DNA of 51,801 nt from Gemmatimonadales bacterium (GTDB lineage Bacteria; Gemmatimonadota; Gemmatimonadetes; Gemmatimonadales; GWC2-71-9), in the NCBI GenBank assembly GCA_035631795.1, contig DASQIB010000179.1:1-51801 (forward strand), in the 5' to 3' direction. Numbering within the stretch: the stretch's first letter is position 1; the number at the start of each line of letters is the position of its first letter. Positions 29,166 to 38,707 of this stretch are shown here, in pieces. The position numbers were made by a program, and so were the translations under genes. The notes beneath the pieces are model-generated. The model did no database searches and was not told where the DNA came from. It worked only from the letters and a program-made list of their open reading frames with translations.

Positions 29166-29606
29166 TCACGCCAGCGCCGAGTGGATGTGGATCTCGGACG
29201 TCAGCGTTCGGTGCACCGGACACATGTCCCCGATCTCGTGTAGTCGGTGCCGCTGTTCGTCCGTCAGCTCGCCATTCAATGCGACCACGACCTCGATGTG
29301 GTCGAGCACCCCCTGCTTCGTCTCGCACTCCGCGCAATCCTCGGCGTGAATCCGCGAGTGCCAGAGGCGCACCGTCACCTCACGGAGCGGCCAGCCTTTC
29401 CTTCGCGCATACAGCGCGATGGTCATGGACGTTCACGCACCGAGTCCCGCGAGGAGTAGGTCGTAGGGAGTGGGACCTGTGTCCGTGCCGCCCGACGAGA
29501 CGGGCTCATCTGCACTGAAGTGATGACTGCCGACCGCAATTCCCTGCGCGAATCCCTTTGCGCTCCCGGTTACTACGACCACACCGGGTCTTTTGCTCTC
29601 CTCCAT
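29166..29606 (-). CDS. OsmC/YhfA-family peroxiredoxin-like protein interrupted by an in-frame TGA (29435..29433) at the conserved peroxidatic Cys; candidate selenoprotein or pseudogene
   Basis: Track ORFs 29433..29675 and 29166..29426 are in the same frame. Together they read ...GPTPYDLLLAGLGA-[TGA]-TSMTIALYARRKGWPL...LHEIGDMCPVHRTL. The family consensus has Cys at the TGA position, and the resolving CPV Cys is intact. ATG at 29606. Confidence 0.75.
29403..29419 (-). other. SECIS-like hairpin UCGCGC-UGUAU-GCGCGA downstream of the in-frame UGA
   Basis: 6-bp stem, extendable by CC/GG across an A-A mismatch. The stem starts 13 nt after the UGA. The loop has G at position 2 and starts 19 nt after the UGA. 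Confidence 0.35.
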
Positions 29607-29637
29607 ATCGTCATTCCGGCTAGGGAGGGGGATGGCC

Positions 29638-30393
29638 CTAATGCTGTACGATCCGAGACACGGGGTGGATCTCATTCCAGTGCGCGTGATTCTTCTCCTT
29701 CACGAGCGTTCCCGTGATCGCGACGTGCGATCCGATCGGCGGGATCACGGTGTGGTCGGTGAACCCTTGGCAGCTGGGTTTCGCGTCCGCCTGCGACACC
29801 GTGTAATGGCACACGATCTCGAACACGAGATTGCCGTCCTCGTTCGATGTGTTGCCCGCGTTGATCAAATTCGCGAACTGGGGATCCACTTTGAGCCAGC
29901 CGTGCGTGTCGCCGTCCGGCTCGTGTCGGGCGCCGTCGGCCTGATGGTGCGACAAGTTTGCGGTGGCATCCACGATCGTCCCCGTGACCGTGACGCAGTC
30001 CTGCAGGATGAGCAGTCGCGAGGGGTGATAGACGTGCTGCCACAGCGAGTCGCCGCATCCCGCCATGCTCGTCGATCCAGGCACGCCGGGGCCGGGCTGG
30101 ATCACCGTGTCAGCGACGGTCGGGGATGCGTTGATTCGGACGTAGAGGCTCCACACGTAGCCCGTGTCTCCCCCGCTCGTGACGACCCGGTAGTAGCCGC
30201 TCTCCAGTGTCGGGTCGAGCAGCGTCAGCGGCGGCTCGGAAGGCGTGAGCAGGCGGATTGGCGGGTACTCACTCGACGGGTCGGAGCGGAGATTCACGTT
30301 GTGAATGACGCTCGCGGTCTGCGCCGGCGCGGGCGGGGGGCTGACAGACAACAAGAGGAGCGCGGTGGCCAGCAGGCTGATTGTGGTGCGCAT
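29638..30393 (-). CDS. Secreted protein with an N-terminal SH3b-like domain and a Cys/His-rich C-terminal domain
   Basis: Signal peptide MRTTISLLATALLLLSVSPPPAPAQ from ATG 30393. SH3b-like VNLRSDPSS...GYYRVVTSGGDTGYVW. The 479-aa track ORF is an artefactual extension. Confidence 0.65.
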   Translation of the reverse strand: MRTTISLLATALLLLSVSPPPAPAQTASVIHNVNLRSDPSSEYPPIRLLTPSEPPLTLLDPTLESGYYRVVTSGGDTGYVWSLYVRINASPTVADTVIQPGPGVPGSTSMAGCGDSLWQHVYHPSRLLILQDCVTVTGTIVDATANLSHHQADGARHEPDGDTHGWLKVDPQFANLINAGNTSNEDGNLVFEIVCHYTVSQADAKPSCQGFTDHTVIPPIGSHVAITGTLVKEKNHAHWNEIHPVSRIVQH

Positions 30394-30410
30394 AGTGTCC
30401 CTCCAGGACG

Positions 30411-30986
30411 CTAGCGAACTTCGGGCCCGCCCTTCCGATCGTCTAGGACGAATCGAGCACGAGCGGGCATCGCAATCCGGGGAAGGCTGCTCCGGTCGAT
30501 CAGCGTCGTATCGGCGATGATCTCGTTGCGCCACAGGAGCCAGGCCACCAGGCCGTACACCTCGTCGGGTCCGAGCGACCCCGGGGCGTTGAGCGGCATT
30601 GCCCGATGCACGTAGTCGTAGATCGTCGTGGCGTACGGCCAATAGTTGCCGATGGTGGGGACGAATCCCTGCGCCTTGCCGAAGGGGAATCCGTCGCGGG
30701 GCTCGCGGCCCACGAGCCGATCCATCGGTCCCTCCGTGCCCGAGCGTCCGTGACAGGCCGCGCATTTCGCCGCGTACACCGGGGCGCCGGTGCGCGCCGT
30801 GCCGCTTCCGGCCGGGAGCCCCGTGCCGTCGGGCGCGACGTCGATATCCCACGCGGCGATCTCGGCGGAGCTCGCGCCGCGCCCGAACCCGAACCGGGCG
30901 GGCGGCGCGGCGGACCCGCCTTGCTCGCGCGGTCTGCACGCCCCGGCGCCGATCCCGGCCAGGAGCAGGATCGCCAGGGGTCGCAC
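30411..30986 (-). CDS. Mono-haem c-type cytochrome, SoxD/SorB-like partner of the sulfite dehydrogenase
   Basis: CxxCH in YAAKCAACHG. Signal-like VRPLAILLLAGIGAGAC from GTG 30986, 2 nt after the upstream stop. Confidence 0.78.
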   Translation of the reverse strand: MRPLAILLLAGIGAGACRPREQGGSAAPPARFGFGRGASSAEIAAWDIDVAPDGTGLPAGSGTARTGAPVYAAKCAACHGRSGTEGPMDRLVGREPRDGFPFGKAQGFVPTIGNYWPYATTIYDYVHRAMPLNAPGSLGPDEVYGLVAWLLWRNEIIADTTLIDRSSLPRIAMPARARFVLDDRKGGPEVR

Positions 30987-30988
30987 GG

Positions 30989-32209
30989 TCAGCCCTCCAG
31001 TCCAAACACGACCGTGCCGTCCGATCGCACGCGCCAGGCTCTGATATTGTTGAAGTGGTAGTAGGTGCCGGGCCCACGCACCGCTCGGAGCGCCGCGAGC
31101 GTGGGTTGCACGTATCCCGTCTCGTCCATGGCGCGGCTCATGAGGAGCGTGTCGCGCCCGTCCCACCGCCAGAGCGAGCGGAACCGCGTGTGGCACTTGG
31201 CGAGGACCGGCTCCTGAAGCTCCGCAGGGCGCCAGCGTCCGCCGCCATCGGTGCTCACATCCACGCGCGTGATCCGGCCTCGGCCGCTCCACGCGAGCCC
31301 CGAGATCTCCCACCATCCTTTGTCGGGGAGCGTCACCGGATACGCCGGGAAGGTGATGATCGATTTCGCGTCCATGACGAAGCTGAACTGGCGCGCCGTG
31401 TCGTTCGGCAGGGGATCCGTGTACTTGGACGTCTCCTCGCGCGTCATGAACGGCCGGTCGGCCACTTCGATGCGCCGGATCCACTTCACGGAAGTATTCC
31501 CTTCCCAGCCCGGGAGCAGCAGGCGGGCCGGGTAGCCCTGCTCGGGCCGGAGCGCCTCACCGTTCTGGTCGTAGGCGATCAGCGCGTCGTCCCAACCTTT
31601 GTCGGTCGGAATGCTGCGGGTCATGACCGCCGCATCGCCTCCCTCGGCGAGAAACCACGTCGCTCCGGGCTTCACCCCCACCTCGCGAAACAGTGTGGCG
31701 AGCGGCACGCCGGTCCACTCGCTCGTACTGGTGAGACCGTCGACGAGCTGAGGTGTGAGGTTGGGCTTCAGGTCGCGGTAGGCGGAGAAGCCGTTCCCGG
31801 AACACTCGAGGAATGCGAGGCGGGAGACGGAAGGAAAGCGGCGCAGCGCCTCAAGGTCGAATACGGTGGGCCGCTCGACCATCCCGTGGATCAGCAGCTT
31901 GTAGCGATGTGGATCGATCGCGGGGACCCCCGCGTGATGGCGCTCGTAATGCAGGTCGGACGGCGTGATGATCCCGTTCAGGTCCTGGAGCGGCGTGAGG
32001 GAGATCCCCTGGTCGACCCCCGCGACCACGCGGCGTGGCCGCTCGAATGGGGCGCGCTGCCCGAGGTCGGACAGCGCACGGCCCGGGACTCTGGTCGGAT
32101 CGGGTGGTGCGGGTGACTGGGCGAATCCGGAGCGCTCGACCGCGACGGCACCGGCCGCGCCCAGTGCGCCGGCGAGCAGCGCGCGCCGGGAGATCCTCGT
32201 GCGACTCAC
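30989..32209 (-). CDS. SoxC/SorA-type molybdopterin sulfite dehydrogenase (sulfite oxidase family), Tat-exported
   Basis: Twin-arginine signal MSRTRISRRALLAGALGAAG. Mo-ligand Cys motif FLECSGNG. YPARLLLPGWEGNTSVKWIRRIEV is typical of the family. Confidence 0.88.
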   Translation of the reverse strand: MSRTRISRRALLAGALGAAGAVAVERSGFAQSPAPPDPTRVPGRALSDLGQRAPFERPRRVVAGVDQGISLTPLQDLNGIITPSDLHYERHHAGVPAIDPHRYKLLIHGMVERPTVFDLEALRRFPSVSRLAFLECSGNGFSAYRDLKPNLTPQLVDGLTSTSEWTGVPLATLFREVGVKPGATWFLAEGGDAAVMTRSIPTDKGWDDALIAYDQNGEALRPEQGYPARLLLPGWEGNTSVKWIRRIEVADRPFMTREETSKYTDPLPNDTARQFSFVMDAKSIITFPAYPVTLPDKGWWEISGLAWSGRGRITRVDVSTDGGGRWRPAELQEPVLAKCHTRFRSLWRWDGRDTLLMSRAMDETGYVQPTLAALRAVRGPGTYYHFNNIRAWRVRSDGTVVFGLEG

Positions 32210-32228
32210 GGGTGTCCCTCCTCTCGCT

Positions 32229-32894
32229 TCAGAAGCGATAACCGAAACCGAACGACAGGACGGGATACACCTTCAGATACTTGCGGACGTCGTGCTGCGT
32301 CTGAGCTTGCTGAGTCTGGATATCGGCGGCGAGCTGTGGAATGGAATCGGCACCGGTGGCATTCAGGAAGACCTTTGGCTTGCCGAGTACCGCCCCAAAG
32401 TCGAACAGGAACTTGAGGGCCTTGTGCTCGTTCGCCGGGGTGCCGAACCCGAGGCCCAGGTACGGGCTCGCGCTGGGAAATTTCCCCTGCGCGGTGAGCG
32501 TGCCGACCGCGCTCGCGGAATACTCTTTGCCGTTGATCTTGAAGCTGTCCGATGCCGCGGGTATGCCGGTGGCGCTGATGGTGAGCGGGTTCGTGACGAG
32601 ACCGGTGGTCACGTGGAAGCTGCCGCGGCGGCCGGGAAAAATATCGATCAGCGCCGTGAACGTGTGGAGCTTGAGCGACGCGTCGTAGCTGATGTCCGAC
32701 TGCGATTTGTTGGTGCTCCAGCTGAAGAAGCTGCCGCCCAGTCGGGCACCGATGTGCCCCGTGAGGAGCTTGGCGACCTCGACGCCGAATCCGGTCGTGG
32801 CCGCGCGCACGTCGATGGATGCATTGCTTTGGCCCGCGAGCGAGGCACAATCGAGGAGTACGACGGCGAGACCGAATCGCAGGACCCGTCTCAT
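32229..32894 (-). CDS. Outer-membrane beta-barrel protein (221 aa)
   Basis: GGAGG lies 7 nt upstream of ATG 32894. Signal peptide MRRVLRFGLAVVLLDCASLAG. The C-terminus YPVLSFGFGYRF ends in Phe. Confidence 0.7.
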   Translation of the reverse strand: MRRVLRFGLAVVLLDCASLAGQSNASIDVRAATTGFGVEVAKLLTGHIGARLGGSFFSWSTNKSQSDISYDASLKLHTFTALIDIFPGRRGSFHVTTGLVTNPLTISATGIPAASDSFKINGKEYSASAVGTLTAQGKFPSASPYLGLGFGTPANEHKALKFLFDFGAVLGKPKVFLNATGADSIPQLAADIQTQQAQTQHDVRKYLKVYPVLSFGFGYRF

Positions 32895-33003
32895 GTCAGA
32901 CCCTCCTGAATCGTCGTGAAGATGCTCCCCTCCGAGGCACAGTCGAATATGCCCCGCGCCTGCCGACGCGCGAGCGTTTCTCTCTGCACCGTCGTGAGAA
33001 GCC

Positions 33004-33552
33004 TTAGAGAGGGCGGAAGAGCGCCGCCAAAGAGAGGACGAGCGGGCCCGTGGCGCCGGAAGGAAGCCACGCGAGCTGCTCGTGTTCCACGGCCGGCAAC
33101 GCCAGCTCCGGCGTCCAGGTCTCCACGACGTGCTCGTCGGCGTCCACGATCCAGTAGGTCGGGACGCCCATGTCCTGGTACAGGCAGCGCTTTGCGAAAC
33201 GGTCCGCTCGGGCCGTCGCATCGCTTAAGACTTCGACCACCAGCTCGAGGTGCGTGAGCCGGGCCCAGTCGAGCGTGCGGGCTTCCTGCAGCGGAACCAC
33301 GAACAGATCCGGCTGCACGAGCACGTCGGGTCCCGGGGAGATATCGGCGGGGGCGGACAGGATGTACCAATCCGGATGCCGTGCCAGGTACACCTTGAGC
33401 GCGGCGCGCAGCCGCTCGAGGATCACCTGGTGCCACATCCGGGGCGCGGGGGTGACGAGCAGCTCTCCGCGCACCGTCTCGTACCGGTTCCCGTCCTCGG
33501 GGAGCTGCCGCACCATCTCCGCCGTGTAGTAGACCGGCGCCACCATGACCAT
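33004..33552 (-). CDS. Uma2-family (DUF820) restriction-endonuclease-fold protein
   Basis: YETVRGELLVTPAPRMWHQ, VQPDLFVV and VVEVLSDATARADRFAKRCLYQDMGVPTYWIVD match the Uma2 PD-(D/E)xK pattern. The start is uncertain (ATG 33552, 33546 or 33570). Confidence 0.78.
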   Translation of the reverse strand: MVMVAPVYYTAEMVRQLPEDGNRYETVRGELLVTPAPRMWHQVILERLRAALKVYLARHPDWYILSAPADISPGPDVLVQPDLFVVPLQEARTLDWARLTHLELVVEVLSDATARADRFAKRCLYQDMGVPTYWIVDADEHVVETWTPELALPAVEHEQLAWLPSGATGPLVLSLAALFRPL

Positions 33553-33568
33553 ATGATACATTCCCTGC

Positions 33569-34912
33569 ATGGCCCTCGCCGAGCGCGTCGTGTCTGGTAT
33601 CGACGCCAACCGCACCGTCAAAGATGAGCTCACCGAGGCCCTGAAGCGCCAGGGCCGGCGCCGCCGCATCTCGGTCACCGACCTCGTCAACCCGCGCCAG
33701 GCCTTCCACCAACGCGCCCGGCCCGACATCCAACCCGATCCCGAGCGCAAACAAGCGATGCTCGCGGGGACGGGTTTCCACGAAGTGTTCGGTCGGGCGG
33801 TTTCCACGGAAGAGTTCGTGGAGCAGTTCGTCGAGTTCCAGGGGGTGGTGGGGAAGATCGACATCTACGAGGACGTCCCAGTCGAGCTCAAGACGACCGC
33901 CTCGCTCCCCACAGGACTCGCCGCCGCGCGCGCGAGCTACGTGGACCAGCTCGGCATGTATTGCACGATGACCGGTCGCGACGCCGGTCGATTGTTCGTC
34001 TACAAGCGCGCCTTGTACGGCCGCCCCGGCGCGCTCCGGGCGTTCGACGTGCGGTTCCGGGACCTGCGATCGATCGAGCGGGAGATGGTGCGACGGCGCG
34101 ATCTGTTCCGCGAGGCGCTCACGCGGAACGATCCGAGCGGGTTGCCGCGCTGCGAGTGGTTCGACATGAATTGCGACTTCAAGGCCGTGTGTGGCTGCGC
34201 AACCGCGTCGCCGCTCACGCGCGTCGTTCCGGCCACGGCGATTCGGATCGCCGAAAACGCGGAGCTGGTCTCGGCCATGACGGCGCTCCTGACGGACGCG
34301 CCCAAGCCGGGCCCCCAGTTTCGGCTCAACGACCTCGTGTTTCCTCGGCGCGCCGCAATCGAACGCCAGGCGGTGGGCGAGACGAAGCCCGAGGAAGAGG
34401 ATCAGGGAGGAGACCTGGACTCGGCACTCGCCGGAATGGAGCGACTCGGGTTCGGCGACGCGCTCAAGGACGCGCTGTGGTACGGCGTACCCGGCGCGTT
34501 CGCGCGGATCCCCGTCTCGCTGCGGAGTCTCAAGGGTCGGGTTGGCACGTTCCGCGGCGTCCCTACGATCTTTCGGTCCACTCGCAGACCCAAAATGGTC
34601 GAGCGGTCACAGCTCGTCGAAGAGTTCCCCTACTACTTCGATCGCATCGCATTCGAGTGCGCGTTGAGCGGGCAGCACACGGGGCGGGTGGTGATCTACT
34701 ACGAGGCCGTGAAGGACGACAAATTCATGGTGTACGACGTGTATTTCCGCGATCTGGACGCGATCAACGCCGAGGCGGACCGTCGCCTGGCGTTGCTCGA
34801 GACCGGTGCCGCGCCCGACAAGCTGCCCCCGTGCGAGCCCTCGTGGATGCCCAACTATTGTCCCCATACCTCGCGATGCGCGTGCAAGCCGGCAACCGTG
34901 AACGCGCTATGA
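33569..34912 (+). CDS. Tandem-duplicated Cas4/RecB-like PD-(D/E)xK nuclease-fold protein (active N-half, degenerate C-half), each half ending in a 4-Cys cluster
   Basis: N-half has GFHEVF, GKIDIYED (D98), VELK (E106/K108), QLGMY (Q127..Y131) and CEWFDMNCDFKAVCGC. C-half aligns block by block but has lost the D/E/K/Q/Y residues. See findings. Confidence 0.7.
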   Translation: MALAERVVSGIDANRTVKDELTEALKRQGRRRRISVTDLVNPRQAFHQRARPDIQPDPERKQAMLAGTGFHEVFGRAVSTEEFVEQFVEFQGVVGKIDIYEDVPVELKTTASLPTGLAAARASYVDQLGMYCTMTGRDAGRLFVYKRALYGRPGALRAFDVRFRDLRSIEREMVRRRDLFREALTRNDPSGLPRCEWFDMNCDFKAVCGCATASPLTRVVPATAIRIAENAELVSAMTALLTDAPKPGPQFRLNDLVFPRRAAIERQAVGETKPEEEDQGGDLDSALAGMERLGFGDALKDALWYGVPGAFARIPVSLRSLKGRVGTFRGVPTIFRSTRRPKMVERSQLVEEFPYYFDRIAFECALSGQHTGRVVIYYEAVKDDKFMVYDVYFRDLDAINAEADRRLALLETGAAPDKLPPCEPSWMPNYCPHTSRCACKPATVNAL

Positions 34913-35427
34913 CGACTCTTCACCGTTTCGCCTCTCCCGTCGGCGAGCTCGTCCTCACGGCCTCGGCCTTGGGGCTGACCGCGATTTATTTCCCGACCTC
35001 GCGGCACGGCCCTCCCCGCGTGGAAAGCGAGGATTGGGTGGAAGACGACGGTCGAGGAGCCGCGGGGGCGATTCTCGCGGGCGCGCGTCAACAGCTGCAG
35101 GAGTATTTCGCCGGCGGGCGGACCGCGTTCGACGTACCATTGGCTGCTTCCGGTACCACGTTCGAGCGGCGCGTCTGGGAGCTGTTGCGTGGCATTCCCT
35201 ACGGCACTACGACGAGCTACGGCGTGCTGGCGCGCCGCCTCGGCGATCCGCGAGCGACGCGAGCCGTGGGCGCGGCGAACGGCAAGAACCCGATTCCCAT
35301 CATCGTCCCCTGTCACCGCGTGGTCGGCGCCCGCGGGGAGCTGACCGGCTTCGGCGGCGGCATCGACCGCAAGCGCTGGCTCCTGGAGCACGAGGGCGCG
35401 CTGATGCGGCTCGGGGGCGGGGGGTAA
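34909..35427 (+). CDS. ogt: Methylated-DNA--protein-cysteine S-methyltransferase
   Basis: Active-site IIVPCHRVV, TSYGVLARRLG and NPIPIIVP. The ATG at 34909 overlaps the upstream stop (ATGA). Confidence 0.92.
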   Translation: MTTLHRFASPVGELVLTASALGLTAIYFPTSRHGPPRVESEDWVEDDGRGAAGAILAGARQQLQEYFAGGRTAFDVPLAASGTTFERRVWELLRGIPYGTTTSYGVLARRLGDPRATRAVGAANGKNPIPIIVPCHRVVGARGELTGFGGGIDRKRWLLEHEGALMRLGGGG

Positions 35428-35463
35428 ACTCCGGGGGCTCGCCCCTCGTAGGACGACGGGCAC

Positions 35464-37050
35464 ATGACGGCTCCGATCAGCCACGAATTCTTGGCCCTCC
35501 AGGACGTCCTCGCGGGCCGCTATTCGCTCGAGCGCGAGCTCGGTCGTGGCGGTATGGGGATCGTGCTGCTCGCCCGCGACGTGGCGCTCGACCGGCCGGT
35601 GGCGATCAAGCTGTTGCCCCCGCATCTCGCCGCCATTCCCGAAGCCCGCGACCGCTTCCTGCAGGAGGCCCGGACAGCCGCGGGCCTGTCCCATCCCAAC
35701 ATCGTGCCGATCCACCTGGTCGAGGCGCGCGGCGATCTCGTGTTCTTCGTGATGGGATACGTGGATGGGGAAACCCTACGCGAGCGGGTCGAGCGCGCCG
35801 GACCGCTCTCCCCGCGCCTGGCGATGAAGCTCCTGCAGGAGGTGGCCTGGGCGCTCGCCTACGCACACCAGCGCGGCCTCATTCACCGCGACGTGAAGCC
35901 CGACAACATCATGATCGAGCGTGCCACGGAGCGAGCCCTCGTCACCGACTTTGGGATCGCGCTCGGCACAGAAGAGGAAGGGGCGCAAGCCGGCGGCGTC
36001 GTGATCGGCACGGCACGGTACATGAGCCCGGAGCAGGCCTGCGGAGAGCCGGTCGACGCGCGGAGCGACCTGTATTCGCTCGGCGCAACGTTCTTCTACG
36101 CCCTCACCGGGCATGCGCCGTTCGAAGGGAGGACGCTCCCCGCGATCCTCGCCAAGCAGGTCGCCGAGCCCGCGCCGCTGGTGCACGTCGCGCGCCCCGA
36201 GGTCCCCGCCAAGCTCGCGGCGGTGATCGATCGCTGCCTCGAGAAGCTCCCCGCCAAGCGGTTCCAGACCGGCGACGACGTGGCGCGCGTGGTGGGAGAA
36301 GCGCGAGGCCGGGACTTCCGCGCCCCGCCGCTGGTGCGGGCGTTCACCCGTAACGCGCAGGTCTCCACGATGGTGCTCTTCGCCATGATGCTCGCCGGCC
36401 AGTCCGTGACCATCGCAAGGACGGGCGTCACGGTCTCCATGGGCGGCCCCGGCGTCATCGGCATCATTTTGTTGTGCCAGCTGATGTTCGTGGCGCGTCG
36501 CCTCTTGAAGGACGGCTACGGCTTCAGCGATATCCGGGCTGCGTTGCTCGCCGAGGCGCAAGTGCAGGCAGAGGAAGCCGAGGTGATCAAGCAGCGCCGG
36601 TGGCTGCGGCGACTCGACACGCTGTGGTACAAGCTCTGGGCTGGGCCGGTGGGCCGGACGTTCTTCAAGGTCGCGGGTTGCCGTCTCAAGGTGTCCGCCC
36701 GGCCCGCGACGGCCTCCGTCGAGCGGACCGAGCTCGTGCTCGAGCGCTCGGCGCTCGCGGCCTTCAACGCGCTGCCCGAGGCCGACCGCCGCCAGACCTC
36801 GGACGTGCCGAGCGTTGTGCAGCGGCTCGAGGCGGGAGCGAAGGCGCTCAGGGCCAAAGGCGACACGGGGGAGCGGCTCACTGAAGCGGTGGCCGCCCTC
36901 GAGCGGTTGCGGCTGGCCCTTTTTCGGTTGCAGGCGGGCGACGGGTCGGTCGGGGACCTGACGTCGGCACTCGAGCGCGCGCGGGAGATCGGCGAGCACG
37001 TCGACGCGCGCCTCGAGGCGGCGCGGGAGGTCGAGAGCCTGCTCGAGTAG
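35464..37050 (+). CDS. Hanks-type serine/threonine protein kinase with two TM helices and a helical C-terminal region
   Basis: GRGGMGIV (P-loop), AIKLL (Lys), HRDVKPDNIM, DFG and SPEQ. TM region VSTMVLFAMMLAGQSV...GVIGIILLCQLMFVA. Confidence 0.9.
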   Translation: MTAPISHEFLALQDVLAGRYSLERELGRGGMGIVLLARDVALDRPVAIKLLPPHLAAIPEARDRFLQEARTAAGLSHPNIVPIHLVEARGDLVFFVMGYVDGETLRERVERAGPLSPRLAMKLLQEVAWALAYAHQRGLIHRDVKPDNIMIERATERALVTDFGIALGTEEEGAQAGGVVIGTARYMSPEQACGEPVDARSDLYSLGATFFYALTGHAPFEGRTLPAILAKQVAEPAPLVHVARPEVPAKLAAVIDRCLEKLPAKRFQTGDDVARVVGEARGRDFRAPPLVRAFTRNAQVSTMVLFAMMLAGQSVTIARTGVTVSMGGPGVIGIILLCQLMFVARRLLKDGYGFSDIRAALLAEAQVQAEEAEVIKQRRWLRRLDTLWYKLWAGPVGRTFFKVAGCRLKVSARPATASVERTELVLERSALAAFNALPEADRRQTSDVPSVVQRLEAGAKALRAKGDTGERLTEAVAALERLRLALFRLQAGDGSVGDLTSALERAREIGEHVDARLEAAREVESLLE

Positions 37051-37074
37051 AGCTCTCCCACCTGACATTGTGCG

Positions 37075-38178
37075 GTGGGGGACCGGCCCCCCATCTTCCA
37101 GGGCATGGTTGCGCGCGAGCACCATGCGGCCGAGCGCCGACTGTTGCCGCCACGCCGCACCGCGATCGAGCGGCGCATCGGCGAGCGGCGCCTCGAGCTC
37201 CTCGCGCTTCCCGACGAGCGGCGCGAGCAGACCGATCGGCGGCAGGGCGCGGAACGGCGCGAGCGAGCTGGTCGCCGCCAGGGTGACGTCTCGCGCCGCG
37301 GCCGGCTGGTCGTCCTGGTGGTGAGCGACCGTGACGCCGAGGTGCGGCAGGTGCGGGAGCTCCTCCACGGCGCGGCGCCGGAGCATTTTGACGTGACGGC
37401 GATAGCGCCGGACGCATCGCTCGACCGGCTCGCGCGGGGCGGGATCGATGTCGTCCTGCTGACGCTCTCCCTCTCCGCCCGGCGCGGCTTCAGCACCTTC
37501 GCCGAGCTGCGCGCCCTCGCGCCCGCCATCCCGTTCCTGTTTCTCTCGGATGCGAAGGACGCCCGTCACGGACTCGAGGCCGTCCGGGCGGGCGCACAGG
37601 ACTACCTCGTCACGGCCGAGCTCGACGGGCCCGGGCTCGCCCGCGCGGTGCGGCACGCCATCGAGCGGAACCGTCTCCACGCCGCGCTCCTCGACATGGC
37701 GCTCGTGGATGACTTGACCGGCCTCTACAACCGGCGCGGGTTCCTCACCCTGGCGACACGGGATCTGCGCTTGGCCCGGCGGGGTGATGAAACGCTGCTC
37801 GTGGCGTTCGCCGACATGGACGGCTTGAAGAGTGTGAACGATACCTCGGGGCACGCCGTGGGTGACCGCGCGCTACGAGACACCGCCGGGGTCCTGCGGC
37901 AAACGTTCCGCGAGTCCGATCTCGTCGCCCGGATCGGCGGTGACGAATACGCGGTGCTGGTGCGCCATGCGAAACCAGACACCGCGGGCGTTCTGGGCGA
38001 TCGCCTGAAGCGCCAGGTGCGCGAGTTCAACCGCCGCGCCGTCCGACCATACGAGCTCTCGATCAGCCTCGGCTTCGCCTTCCACAAGGCGAGCACGCTG
38101 GACTCGGTGACCGGCTTGCTCGACCGCGCCGATCGGGCGCTGTACCGCGACAAACGGCGTAAGCACGAGGAGGGCTGA
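37075..38178 (+). CDS. GGDEF-domain protein (diguanylate cyclase-like, GGDEY variant) with a degenerate receiver domain and an Arg/Glu-repeat N-terminus
   Basis: DDLTGLYNRRGF, RESD (I-site position) and RIGGDEYAVLV. The receiver-like segment has T at the phospho-Asp position (DVVLLTLSLS) and T at the Lys position (DYLVTAE). The start is GTG 37075 or ATG 37105. Confidence 0.82.
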   Translation: MGDRPPIFQGMVAREHHAAERRLLPPRRTAIERRIGERRLELLALPDERREQTDRRQGAERRERAGRRQGDVSRRGRLVVLVVSDRDAEVRQVRELLHGAAPEHFDVTAIAPDASLDRLARGGIDVVLLTLSLSARRGFSTFAELRALAPAIPFLFLSDAKDARHGLEAVRAGAQDYLVTAELDGPGLARAVRHAIERNRLHAALLDMALVDDLTGLYNRRGFLTLATRDLRLARRGDETLLVAFADMDGLKSVNDTSGHAVGDRALRDTAGVLRQTFRESDLVARIGGDEYAVLVRHAKPDTAGVLGDRLKRQVREFNRRAVRPYELSISLGFAFHKASTLDSVTGLLDRADRALYRDKRRKHEEG

Positions 38179-38179
38179 G

Positions 38180-38707
38180 GTGGAGCTCTCCCTGGATGCG
38201 GCACTCGAAATCCTTCCCCGCACGCCGGGCACGCTCAAGAGCATGCTGCGCGGGCTGTCGCCACAATGGACCACCGGCACCGAAGGGCCCGACACCTGGA
38301 GCGCCGAAGGGATCGTGGGTCATCTGATTCACGGTGAAGAAACCGACTGGATTCCGCGCGCGACCATGATTCTCACCAAGGGCGAGTCGCAGACCTTCAA
38401 GCCGTTCGATCGGTTCGCGCAGGCGGAACGCTTCCGCGACTGGTCGCTCGACCAGCTGTTGAACCGGTTCGCCGAGCTGCGCCAGGAGAGCCTGCGCACG
38501 TTGCGGGGATGGCGCCTGAAACCCGAGCAGCTGACGTTGCGGGGCCGGCATCCCGAGCTCGGAACGGTGACGCTGTCGCAGCTGCTCGCCTGTTGGGTGG
38601 TCCACGACCTCGGACACCTGGCCCAAATCTCTCGCGTGATGGCCAAGCAGTACACGGATGCGGTCGGGCCGTGGCAGGCCTACTTACCGGTGCTCACCCG
38701 CAAATGA
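38180..38707 (+). CDS. DinB-family protein (second copy in the window)
   Basis: GTG start 1 nt after the upstream stop. GHLIHGEETDWIPR and LACWVVHDLGHLAQISRV are His-bearing helices of the DinB fold. Confidence 0.8.
   Translation: MELSLDAALEILPRTPGTLKSMLRGLSPQWTTGTEGPDTWSAEGIVGHLIHGEETDWIPRATMILTKGESQTFKPFDRFAQAERFRDWSLDQLLNRFAELRQESLRTLRGWRLKPEQLTLRGRHPELGTVTLSQLLACWVVHDLGHLAQISRVMAKQYTDAVGPWQAYLPVLTRK

What the first reader, a model, noticed from the sequence alone, without database searches (positions are those of the whole stretch)
33569..34912. One polypeptide made of two Cas4/RecB-like PD-(D/E)xK modules, one intact and one catalytically dead, each capped by a CxnCx5CxC cluster
Reading the 447-aa product against itself shows an internal duplication, with aa ~30-212 aligning to aa ~248-441 block by block. 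The matching blocks are RISVTDLVNPRQ / FRLNDLVFPRR, GKIDIYEDVPVELKTTAS / GRVGTFRGVPTIFRSTRR, SYVDQLGMYCTMTG / YYFDRIAFECALSG, GRLFVYKRA / GRVVIYYEA, FDVRFRDLRSIEREMVRRRDLFRE / YDVYFRDLDAINAEADRRLALLE, and PRCEWFDMNCDFKAVCGC / PPCEPSWMPNYCPHTSRCAC. The first module keeps the nuclease signature: D98 (nt 33860), E106-x-K108 (33884..33892) and Q127xxxY131. The second module has T/I/R/R/E at those positions and should be inactive. In canonical Cas4/AddB one Fe-S ligand Cys sits near the N-terminus (CPR). Here that site reads NPR, and four Cys are bunched at the end of each module (C195/202/208/210 and C422/431/437/439). I cannot place a covalently fused active/inactive pseudo-dimer of this fold with this Cys layout in a named family.
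Basis: partly seen in the sequence, partly recalled or inferred. Interest (0 to 1): 0.75.

Follow-up and report, generated by a model that had tools for sequence, protein, structure and literature searches.

The report
Tandem Cas4-like nuclease, one half dead
This gene encodes a DNA-cutting enzyme built from two copies of the Cas4/RecB nuclease fold, only the first able to cut; it belongs to a large unnamed family in uncultured bacteria and archaea that probably works in DNA repair.

Summary
ORF 33569..34912 (+) encodes 447 aa, and its two halves are homologous (BLASTP E=5e-14; profile-profile E=3.8e-33, 211 columns). Each half models as a Cas4-like PD-(D/E)xK fold, with Cas4 SSO0001 as the top PDB match for both. 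In 321 full-length relatives the N module keeps E85, D98, E106, K108, Q127 and Y131 in all 320 with a residue aligned. The C module never has the acidic residues (G326, I334, R336). Each module ends in a conserved Cys cluster. The canonical N-terminal "CPR" cysteine is absent (N41-P42-R43).

The family has at least 706 clusters at 50% identity, nearly all full-length members about 440-490 aa. It occurs in MAGs of Gemmatimonadota, Armatimonadota, Chloroflexota, Sysuimicrobiota, ANGP1 and Thermoplasmata, with no curated Pfam or NCBIfam assignment and no name beyond "hypothetical protein". Single-module relatives with the same four C-terminal cysteines exist, at least one in an archaeal mobile-element-like locus.

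The gene is chromosomal and usually stands alone. Here it overlaps ogt by 4 nt. In one bacterial clade it follows mrfA-mrfB.

Best reading: a single-active-site pseudo-dimeric DNA-repair nuclease. This is inferred, not shown. It is a new variant of a known kind.

The parts
33569..34912 (+). Whole ORF, 447 aa plus stop: tandem Cas4-like nuclease
   Evidence: ORF list and translation. 286 close homologues of the same length. 706 clusters at 50% identity with E<=1e-3.
33590..34234 (+). N module (aa ~8-222): intact Cas4-like PD-(D/E)xK nuclease domain
   Evidence: phrog_1706 E=7.5e-13 over aa 27-208. Profile against Cas4 SSO0001 E=7e-5. Foldseek top hit for the full-length model is 4ic1.
33689..33697 (+). 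N41-P42-R43, where canonical Cas4/AddB has the N-terminal Fe-S ligand Cys ('CPR')
   Evidence: The alignment to SSO0001 places 'VTDLVn.PR' against 'VTDLVRcPRR'. Column counts are N 148, D 35 and no Cys listed among 204 members.
33821..33823 (+). E85, conserved acidic residue upstream of the D...ExK core
   Evidence: Present in 320/321, the remaining sequence having a gap. It pairs with R313 in the C module.
33860..33892 (+). Catalytic core D98 ... E106-L-K108
   Evidence: D98, E106 and K108 each present in 320/321 full-length members, the remaining sequence having a gap.
33947..33961 (+). Q127-x3-Y131 motif of RecB/Cas4-type nucleases
   Evidence: Q127 and Y131 each present in 320/321. Aligned to 'QLQIY' of SSO0001.
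34151..34198 (+). N-module Cys cluster C195-x6-C202-x5-C208-x-C210
   Evidence: C195 in 320/321; C202, C208 and C210 in 321/321.
34241..34891 (+). C module (aa ~225-441): catalytically dead copy of the same fold
   Evidence: Self-alignment. AF2 model pLDDT 84.5. Foldseek top hit Cas4 4ic1 E=7.6e-6. The catalytic equivalents are G326 (variable), I334 (L/I/V), R336 (R/K), R359 and E363.
34340..34348 (+). F258-P259-R260, C-module counterpart of the NPR/CPR site
   Evidence: P259 in 200/204 and R260 in 201/204.
34382..34453 (+). Acidic, low-confidence insertion (aa ~272-295) in the C module, variable in length
   Evidence: pLDDT below 50 at aa 272-281 and 289-295. Gap-rich columns in alignment A1.
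34832..34885 (+). C-module Cys cluster C422-x8-C431-x5-C437-x-C439
   Evidence: C422, C431 and C437 in 320/321; C439 in 291/321. Many members lacking C439 have C-x4-C-x2-C-x5-C instead.
34909..35427 (+). ogt (O6-alkylguanine-DNA alkyltransferase). Its ATG overlaps the nuclease stop codon (ATGA).
   Evidence: Sequence. Start coordinate. Pfam DNA_binding_1 E=1.2e-36 and Methyltransf_1N.
33004..33546 (-). Divergent Uma2-family gene. Possible starts at 33546-33570, 0-22 nt from or overlapping the nuclease ATG.
   Evidence: Pfam Uma2 E=8.3e-24. Start codons.

Best explanation
The gene encodes a chromosomal, stand-alone DNA nuclease that is a covalent pseudo-dimer. An ancestral single-module Cas4-like PD-(D/E)xK nuclease, which already carried all four metal-ligand cysteines at its C-terminus, was duplicated in tandem.

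The N module kept the metal-dependent active site (E85, D98, E106-x-K108, Q127-x3-Y131). The C module lost every acidic ligand but kept the fold, its own Cys cluster and several basic residues (R260, R313, R336).

Inferred mechanism:
- The protein has a single active site, so it cuts one strand only. By analogy with Cas4-family enzymes the target is a 5' single-stranded end, flap or ss/ds junction.
- The dead module acts as a built-in partner that binds the other arm or strand of the substrate, or simply stabilises the enzyme. This is how inactive paralogues serve in XPF-ERCC1 or RecB-RecC.
- The Cys4 sites most likely hold Fe-S clusters, as in Cas4 and AddB. They would hold together only the C-terminal segment rather than tying the N-terminal helix to the C-terminus.
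- The cellular role is most likely DNA repair, not CRISPR adaptation or phage defence.

What is shown: the duplication, both folds, the conservation pattern, the taxonomic spread and the gene contexts. What is inferred: substrate, polarity, metal identity and pathway.
For: Duplication.

Folds.

Conservation: the catalytic residues and the N-module cysteines are effectively invariant in 321 full-length members. The C module never has D...ExK, yet it is kept in essentially every full-length member, from bacteria to Thermoplasmata, with conserved C422/C431/C437, P259-R260 and R336. It is therefore under purifying selection.

Ancestry: single-module relatives (P0231, P0240, P0266) have C-x4-C-x2-C-x5-C and no N-terminal Cys. 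They match both the N-module HMM (E about 1e-46 to 1e-52) and the C-module HMM (E 5e-24 to 2e-44).

Chromosomal, non-mobile setting:
- In Thermoplasmata the gene is a single unit in conserved housekeeping synteny, between an FAD flavoprotein gene and acetyltransferase / PRPP-synthetase genes, near eIF2-gamma and S6e.
- No match in PLSDB plasmids or IMG/VR contigs, and only one partial phage 'exonuclease' hit.
- No repeat array in the window resembles a CRISPR.

Repair links:
- A 4-nt ATGA overlap with ogt in the window.
- A DinB_2 gene nearby in the window and in L001/L002.
- MrfA-like helicase plus MrfB-like exonuclease genes upstream on the same strand in 6 of 47 loci. Their stop lies within about 100 nt of the nuclease start in L024, L030 and L032. 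Assignments rest on precomputed Pfam hits for L003, fresh Pfam scans for L024, L030 (MrfB only) and L032, and BLAST clustering for the rest.
Against: - There is no biochemical evidence of any kind, and every organism carrying the gene is an uncultured MAG.
- Gene context is weak. Most loci show no conserved partner.
- The ogt link is limited to close Gemmatimonadales relatives.
- The MrfAB link is limited to one clade and may trace to a single ancestral juxtaposition.
- The relative orientation of the two modules is poorly predicted (full-length pTM 0.55), so a true pseudo-dimer interface is not shown.
- Four cysteines within 16 residues could equally form a zinc knuckle.
- The nearest single-module relative examined (P0266) lies in a mobile-element-like archaeal locus, which leaves a defence or anti-defence ancestry open.
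Confidence: 0.5

Rival explanations
1. It is an immunity or anti-mobile-element nuclease. In this reading it is a 'solo Cas4-like' effector or accessory that degrades invading DNA, as with ACE1 working with Argonaute or Cas4-like nucleases in defence islands. It would not be a housekeeping repair enzyme.
For: - Weak PADLOC hits to DruK (E=0.0014) and Cas4 (E=0.023).
- The closest profile is a viral PHROG, and the closest viral folds are Cas4-like nucleases of archaeal viruses.
- The single-module relative P0266 sits next to an AEP-TOTE primase, a RecA/Rad51-family ATPase gene and TFIIB-like genes.
- The Uma2 'putative restriction endonuclease' gene is a divergent neighbour in the window.
- PIN/RHH toxin-antitoxin pairs and an AbiEi gene lie near some homologues.
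- YprA-family helicases also build defence systems (10.1101/2025.09.15.676423).
Against: - No cas genes appear among the neighbours examined, and no CRISPR-like repeat array is in the window.
- No conserved defence partner was found in 47 loci.
- Thermoplasmata show stable housekeeping synteny.
- The family is absent from plasmid and viral-contig collections.
- The helicase neighbours are of the MrfA plus MrfB type, which the YprA survey places in the DNA-repair branch.
- All PADLOC hits are far from significant.
Confidence: 0.2
2. The nuclease reading is the same, but the two Cys4 sites are structural zinc sites rather than Fe-S clusters. The family would then have lost the Cas4/AddB 'iron staple' altogether.
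For: - All four ligands lie within 16-18 residues at each module's end (C-x6-C-x5-C-x-C and C-x8-C-x5-C-x-C).
- The N-terminal Cys that defines the iron staple is missing.
- The fourth ligand position drifts between family members, which is common for structural Zn sites.
Against: - The C-x5-C spacing is kept in this protein, and the full C-x2-C-x5-C triad is kept in single-module relatives and in some C modules. Both match the Fe-S motif of Cas4 and AddB.
- Every characterised homologue with this motif binds [4Fe-4S] or [2Fe-2S] (PMC5704561; PMC12094033).
Confidence: 0.3
3. The protein is not a stand-alone enzyme. It is the nuclease subunit of a helicase-nuclease machine, and the dead module is the docking platform for the motor. 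The motor would be MrfA/MrfB where these are adjacent, or an unlinked helicase elsewhere. This would be analogous to AddB or RecC within AddAB and RecBCD.
For: - An mrfA-mrfB-nuclease gene order on one strand occurs in six loci, with gaps of 4 to about 100 nt in three of them.
- AddAB and RecBCD show that active and dead modules can combine around a DNA end (established knowledge; PDB hits to RecBCD and AdnAB appear).
- The published MrfAB model contains no endonuclease, and the authors' screen found no further pathway members (10.1101/426304).
Against: - Most family members, including the window gene and all Thermoplasmata loci examined, have no adjacent helicase.
- The MrfAB-linked loci fall in one clade.
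Confidence: 0.2

Closest known systems
Cas4 (e.g. Sulfolobus SSO0001, PDB 4ic1; type I-C Cas4, 8d3l)
   Same: - Best structural match for both modules and best PDB sequence match for the N module.
- Shares the D...ExK and QxxxY motifs, the 'VTDLV-PR' N-terminal helix motif and a C-terminal Cys cluster with C-x5-C spacing.
   Different: - Two modules in one chain, the second dead.
- No N-terminal Cys (NPR instead of CPR), with all four Cys at the C-terminus.
- No hit to the Cas4 Pfam model, and no cas1/cas2 among the neighbours or CRISPR-like repeat array in the window.
Cas4-like nucleases of archaeal viruses and mobile elements (phrog_1706; AFV1 ORF223, SSV-RH C287, rudivirus DUF83 proteins) and the single-module relatives P0231, P0240 and P0266
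   Same: - Closest sequence profile and closest viral folds.
- P0231, P0240 and P0266 share the layout of four C-terminal Cys with no N-terminal Cys, and match both module HMMs. They resemble the likely ancestor of the duplication.
   Different: - They are about 200-290 aa with one active module.
- Those whose origin is named are viral, and P0266 lies in a mobile-element-like locus. The two-module family is chromosomal.
AddB / RecB / AdnAB nuclease domains (Pfam PF12705 PDDEXK_1)
   Same: - The only Pfam family touched (18.5 bits, E=0.002). Five of 19 N modules hit it at E<0.1, and some archaeal members carry a precomputed PF12705 hit.
- Fe-S-type Cys motif. RecBCD and AddAB also combine active and degenerate modules.
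   Different: - No helicase domains.
- The score is below Pfam's gathering cut-off of 22 bits.
- The iron-staple N-terminal Cys is absent.
- The dead partner is fused in the same chain and is a full copy of the nuclease.
XPF-ERCC1 / Mus81-Eme1 (from general knowledge; not tested here)
   Same: An active nuclease paired with a catalytically dead paralogue of the same fold. The result is a single-active-site, structure-specific endonuclease used in excision and cross-link repair.
   Different: - A different branch of the nuclease superfamily, with no detectable sequence relation.
- Two separate polypeptides, with no Cys clusters.
- The analogy is functional only.
MrfA-MrfB (YprA-YprB) mitomycin repair module
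   Same: Encoded directly upstream on the same strand in six bacterial loci. It is a DNA-repair helicase plus 3'-5' exonuclease with no known incision enzyme.
   Different: - Not homologous to the nuclease.
- Not present next to the window gene or in most loci.

Membership tests
PD-(D/E)xK nuclease superfamily | Restriction-endonuclease-like alpha/beta core fold | tested here: met
   The full-length model and the C half modelled alone both retrieve Cas4, lambda exonuclease, RecE and MGME1. The N module is also supported by sequence.
PD-(D/E)xK nuclease superfamily | Catalytic D ... (D/E)xK motif | tested here: met
   Met in the N module: D98 and E106-L-K108 are present in 320/321 members. Not met in the C module (G326, I334-F-R336), which is therefore a dead copy.
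Cas4 family proper (Pfam Cas_Cas4 PF01930 / COG1468) | Match to the curated family profile | tested here: not met
   No PF01930 hit for the protein or for any of 19 N or 19 C modules. The PADLOC Cas4 hit has E=0.023.
Cas4 family proper (Pfam Cas_Cas4 PF01930 / COG1468) | Four Cys arranged as one N-terminal plus three C-terminal (C...C-x2-C-x5-C), the 'iron staple' | tested here: not met
   N41 stands where the Cys is expected, and all four Cys are C-terminal. The canonical layout is as stated in PMC12094033 and PMC5704561.
Cas4 family proper (Pfam Cas_Cas4 PF01930 / COG1468) | QxxxY motif of RecB-type nucleases | tested here: met
   Q127 and Y131 are each present in 320/321 members in the N module. 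The C module has R359 and E363.
Cas4 family proper (Pfam Cas_Cas4 PF01930 / COG1468) | Association with cas1/cas2 or a CRISPR array (for CRISPR-associated Cas4, as opposed to solo-Cas4) | tested here: not met
   No repeat array in the window resembles a CRISPR. The neighbours are Uma2, ogt, a kinase, a GGDEF protein and DinB_2. No cas genes recur in 47 loci.
Cas4 family proper (Pfam Cas_Cas4 PF01930 / COG1468) | Fe-S cluster and metal-dependent ssDNA exo/endonuclease activity | not testable with these tools
   Needs purified protein.
Pfam PF12705 PDDEXK_1 (AddB / Cas4-like) | Score at or above the gathering cut-off (22 bits) | tested here: not met
   18.5 bits, E=0.002, over aa 45-208. Five of 19 N modules hit at E<0.1, the best at 1.4e-4. 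A few archaeal members carry a precomputed PF12705 hit. The protein is a peripheral relative rather than a scored member.
AddAB/RecBCD-type helicase-nuclease | SF1 helicase (or helicase-like) domains fused to the nuclease | tested here: not met
   No helicase domain in the 447 aa. The whole length is accounted for by two nuclease modules.
MrfAB repair module (as a third component) | Conserved operonic linkage with mrfA and mrfB | tested here: inconclusive
   Linked in 6 of 47 loci, all in one clade. Absent in the window and in Thermoplasmata.

The most novel reading that the evidence does not exclude
The family is a previously unrecognised, cross-domain class of structure-specific repair endonuclease: a covalent prokaryotic counterpart of active/dead nuclease pairs such as XPF-ERCC1. 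The dead, cluster-bearing module would position a branched or adducted DNA so that the single active site makes one defined incision. In the lineages where the gene follows mrfA-mrfB, it would supply the incision or 5'-processing step that the published MrfAB excision model lacks.
Probability: 0.15. Interest if true: 0.75.

Novelty: new variant of a known kind. Interest (0 to 1): 0.5.

Why it matters
Cas4/RecB-type nucleases are central to CRISPR adaptation, double-strand-break processing and mitochondrial DNA maintenance. All described forms follow the same plan: one N-terminal plus three C-terminal cysteines, and a single domain or a helicase fusion.

This family departs from that plan in two ways.
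- The fold tolerates moving the whole cluster site to the C-terminus.
- A tandem active/dead arrangement has been kept across several bacterial phyla and Thermoplasmata archaea. That retention argues that the dead module has a function.

The family offers three things:
- a natural system for asking what a Cas4 module does apart from catalysis;
- a candidate single-strand or structure-specific nuclease for enzymology;
- a testable lead for the missing nuclease step in MrfAB-type repair.

It also marks a sizeable family (at least 706 clusters at 50% identity) that current annotation pipelines leave as 'hypothetical protein'.

Tried and rejected
- **Curated libraries.** NCBIfam gave nothing. A sequence search of the PDB with the single protein gave only noise. 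The C-module profile against the PDB gave nothing.
- **Conserved operon partner.** I looked for one across 47 loci by all-against-all BLAST of ORFs. The largest clusters were antisense shadow ORFs of the gene itself, an artefact of a 68% GC genome. Only MrfA/MrfB (6 loci), ogt (the closest relatives), a two-component pair (4-7 loci, lineage synteny) and an outer-membrane beta-barrel gene recurred.
- **Uma2 and ogt as conserved partners.** Rejected, because both are limited to relatives at roughly 90% identity or more.
- **CRISPR association.** Rejected.
- **Plasmid or phage carriage.** Rejected for the two-module form. The single-module relative P0266 had no match in GenBank phages.
- **C364 or C132 as alternative cluster ligands.** I tested whether C364 is kept when C439 is missing. 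The counts were 269 with both, 23 with C364 only, 22 with C439 only and 7 with neither. Many members lacking C439 instead carry C-x4-C-x2-C-x5-C. This gives no clear compensation, so no claim is made.
- **Literature.** Four searches for a described tandem or pseudo-dimeric Cas4 found none. The YprA-family survey does not mention such a partner.
Full report
**1. The observation**

The window is 67.7% GC. Many long overlapping ORFs appear in other frames, such as 33961..35427, and they are shadows.

The N-terminus (MALAERVVSGIDANRT...) aligns with the N-termini of homologues, so the start is right.

**2. Is the internal repeat real?**

- BLASTP of aa 1-224 against aa 225-447 gives E=5e-14, with 27% identity over 196 columns.
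- I built separate alignments of 19 diverse N halves (A2) and 19 C halves (A3) from bacterial and archaeal members. Their profile-profile comparison gives 99.9% probability, E=3.8e-33, over 211 aligned columns.
- The repeat unit therefore spans nearly the whole protein, about aa 8-222 and 225-441.
E85 pairs with R313, E106 with I334, K108 with R336, Q127 with R359 and Y131 with E363.

**3. What fold?**

- Curated libraries barely see the protein. Pfam gives only PDDEXK_1 (PF12705) at 18.5 bits, below its 22-bit cut-off. NCBIfam gives nothing.
- The N module matches phrog_1706 ('CRISPR/Cas system associated') at E=7.5e-13.
- The N-module profile finds Cas4 SSO0001 (4ic1) in the PDB at E=7e-5. 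The alignment places 'VTDLVN-PR' against 'VTDLVRCPRR', D98 and ExK on the Cas4 catalytic strands, and QLGMY on QLQIY.
- An AlphaFold2 model of the whole protein (pLDDT 78.5, pTM 0.55) retrieves Cas4 SSO0001, MGME1, type I-C Cas4, lambda exonuclease and RecE.
- The C half modelled alone (pLDDT 84.5, pTM 0.76) retrieves the same set, with 4ic1 first at E=7.6e-6.
- Both halves are therefore Cas4-like PD-(D/E)xK domains. The C-module profile on its own finds nothing by sequence in the PDB or Pfam.

**4. The family**

- A word-indexed search found 286 relatives, nearly all full-length ones 436-460 aa, and named only as 'hypothetical protein' apart from one unrelated JGI label.
- An exhaustive profile search of 1.84 billion cluster representatives found 706 at E<=1e-3 and 137 at E<=1e-30. 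Most full-length hits are 440-490 aa and are matched end to end.
- In species-representative genomes the closer relatives are all MAGs. They belong to Gemmatimonadota (97% identity in a Gemmatimonadales MAG), Armatimonadota, Chloroflexota/Dehalococcoidia, 'Bacillati bacterium ANGP1' and Candidatus Calidihabitans of Sysuimicrobiota.
- A more distant, large clade belongs to Thermoplasmata archaea. Another divergent member lies in an archaeal contig with TFIIB and an HFX_2341-type gene.

Conservation across 321 full-length members:

| Module | Position | Conservation |
|---|---|---|
| N | E85, D98, E106, K108, Q127, Y131 | 320/321 each (one gap) |
| N | H71 | 316 of 320 with a residue aligned |
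| N | C195 | 320/321 |
| N | C202, C208, C210 | 321/321 |
| C | equivalent of D98 (G326) | variable: G/A/L/P/V |
| C | equivalent of E106 (I334) | hydrophobic: L/I/V |
| C | equivalent of K108 (R336) | R/K |
| C | C422, C431, C437 | 320/321 |
| C | C439 | 291/321 |

No member has a D...ExK motif in the C module. P259-R260 and R336 are conserved there.

The C module diverges faster than the N module. Identities to the window protein across 18 comparators are 82-25% for N and 71-19% for C. The C module is nevertheless retained in essentially every full-length member, which argues that it has a function.

**5. The cysteine layout**

The canonical Cas4/AddB layout has one Cys near the N-terminus and three near the C-terminus. 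Together they form an 'iron staple' (PMC12094033; PMC5704561).

- In this protein the N-terminal site reads N41-P42-R43, and each module ends with four Cys: C-x6-C-x5-C-x-C and C-x8-C-x5-C-x-C.
- Some members, and the single-module relatives P0231, P0240 and P0266 (224-228 aa), instead carry C-x4-C-x2-C-x5-C. That is the canonical C-terminal triad plus a fourth Cys five residues upstream, again with no N-terminal Cys.
- These single-module proteins match both the N-module HMM (E about 1e-46 to 1e-52) and the C-module HMM (E 5e-24 to 2e-44). They resemble the ancestor that was duplicated.
- One of them, P0266, lies in an archaeal locus with an AEP-TOTE primase, a RecA/Rad51-family ATPase gene, a metallophosphatase and TFIIB-like genes. 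The locus looks like a virus or plasmid.
- In the viral structure library, named hits are single Cas4-like or PD-(D/E)xK nucleases of about 150-390 aa, several from archaeal viruses. None spans the query (TM normalised to the query is at most 0.34).
- Whether the sites hold Fe-S or Zn cannot be decided here.

**6. Genomic setting**

*In the window:*
- The gene's stop overlaps the ATG of ogt (ATGA at 34909-34912; Pfam E=1.2e-36).
- A Uma2-family gene diverges from it, with start codons only 0-22 nt away.
- Downstream lie a Ser/Thr kinase, a response-regulator diguanylate cyclase and a DinB_2 protein.
- There is no tRNA, no Rfam match and no CRISPR-like repeat array.

*Across 47 loci:*
- ogt and Uma2 adjacency is limited to the closest Gemmatimonadales relatives.
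- The only recurrent DNA-metabolism neighbours are an MrfA-type helicase (DEAD, Helicase_C, WHD_HRQ1, MZB) followed by an MrfB-type exonuclease (RNase_H_2 plus TPR).
- They lie upstream on the same strand in six loci: L003, L024, L027, L028, L030 and L032. The gaps to the nuclease are 4 to about 100 nt in three of them.
- The six fall within one clade of the protein tree. The linkage may therefore reflect one ancestral event, partly retained.

*In Thermoplasmata:* the gene is a single transcription unit in a conserved housekeeping neighbourhood.

*Mobile elements:* the two-module form has no match in PLSDB plasmids or IMG/VR contigs. There is only one partial hit, to a phage 'exonuclease'.

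**7. Interpretation**

*Shown:*
- a tandem duplication of a Cas4-like nuclease;
- an intact first active site and a second site that has been dead since before the family diversified;
- a conserved Cys cluster on each module, in a non-canonical position;
- a wide but patchy distribution across bacteria and archaea;
- chromosomal, mostly stand-alone genes.

*Inferred:*
- The enzyme cuts one DNA strand with its single active site, while the dead module supplies extra DNA-binding surface or stability.
- This parallels known active/dead pairs (XPF-ERCC1, RecB-RecC; general knowledge).
- It works in DNA repair. The ogt overlap, the DinB_2 neighbours and the MrfAB linkage point that way.
- The published MrfAB model has a helicase and a 3'-5' exonuclease but no endonuclease, and the authors' screen found no other pathway members (10.1101/426304). 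The YprA survey places MrfB-linked helicases in the repair branch.
- These context signals are weak, and I put the repair-nuclease reading at about 0.5.

*Rivals:* a defence role (0.2), a role as a subunit of a helicase-nuclease machine (0.2), and Zn instead of Fe-S at the Cys sites (0.3, independent of the others).

**8. Novelty**

- No curated profile at its threshold, no informative source annotation and no paper found in four searches describes this architecture.
- The components are familiar: the PD-(D/E)xK fold, a Cas4-like motif set, a Cys cluster, and an inactivated paralogue used as a partner.
- The family fails two defining Cas4 tests, the curated profile match and the iron-staple Cys layout. 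It is best described as a new variant of a known kind, not as a Cas4 and not as categorically new.

Noticed in passing
window 33530-33571: The nuclease ATG (33569) and the possible Uma2 start codons on the opposite strand (33546, 33552, 33561, 33570) lie within 25 nt or overlap, so there is essentially no intergenic region. A sigma-70-like site (TAGACC-16-TATGAT, 33530-33557) sits 11 nt upstream of the nuclease ATG, inside the Uma2 5' end. This would give a very short leader or a leaderless mRNA.
   Followed up: partly
window 34909-34912: ATGA overlap between the nuclease stop codon and the ogt start codon implies translational coupling. ogt is directly adjacent only in relatives at 93-97% identity (L006, L007), and lies 1.4-4.2 kb downstream in three other close relatives.
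   Followed up: yes
window 35464-38707: Downstream on the same strand lie a 528-aa Ser/Thr protein kinase with a long non-kinase C-terminal half, a response-regulator GGDEF diguanylate cyclase (37075-38178) and a DinB_2 protein (38180-38707). A DinB_2 gene also lies two genes downstream of the orthologue in L001/L002.
   Followed up: partly
window 29593-38000 (e.g. 33961-35427, 35776-37854, 30599-32116): Very long ORFs of 400-690 aa occur in several frames and on both strands over real genes. This is typical of a 68% GC genome. In the neighbourhood clustering, antisense shadow ORFs of the nuclease gene formed the largest 'conserved' clusters.
   Followed up: yes
L052 / L053, 1-14675 (hot-spring-type JGI metagenome contigs): The single-module relative P0266 sits in a same-strand block with a nucleoside 2-deoxyribosyltransferase-like gene, an NTP transferase, a metallophosphatase, a RecA/Rad51-family ATPase gene, an HTH_45 protein, a TFIIB-like gene and an AEP-TOTE primase. 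The block looks like an uncharacterised archaeal virus or plasmid replication/recombination module.
   Followed up: no
L003, L024, L027, L028, L030, L032 (upstream of the nuclease gene): mrfA-like and mrfB-like genes precede the tandem nuclease gene in Armatimonadota, ANGP1, Sysuimicrobiota and one JGI contig. In L003 and L027, a cation-efflux gene and a small outer-membrane-barrel gene are inserted between them (L003 also carries a Fic gene).
   Followed up: partly
L049-L051 (Thermoplasmata): There is tight conserved synteny around the archaeal orthologue: an FAD-binding flavoprotein gene diverges upstream, and an acetyltransferase gene converges downstream and overlaps the 3' end by about 30-60 nt. 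PRPP synthetase, Trm112, eIF2-gamma and ribosomal protein S6e genes are nearby.
   Followed up: no
window 30411-32209 (- strand): A molybdopterin oxidoreductase (Oxidored_molyb plus Mo-co_dimer, sulfite-oxidase-like, 30989-32209) is followed by an ORF containing a CxxCH haem-binding motif (30411-31484 ORF). This is probably a sulfite dehydrogenase-type pair and is unrelated to the finding.
   Followed up: no
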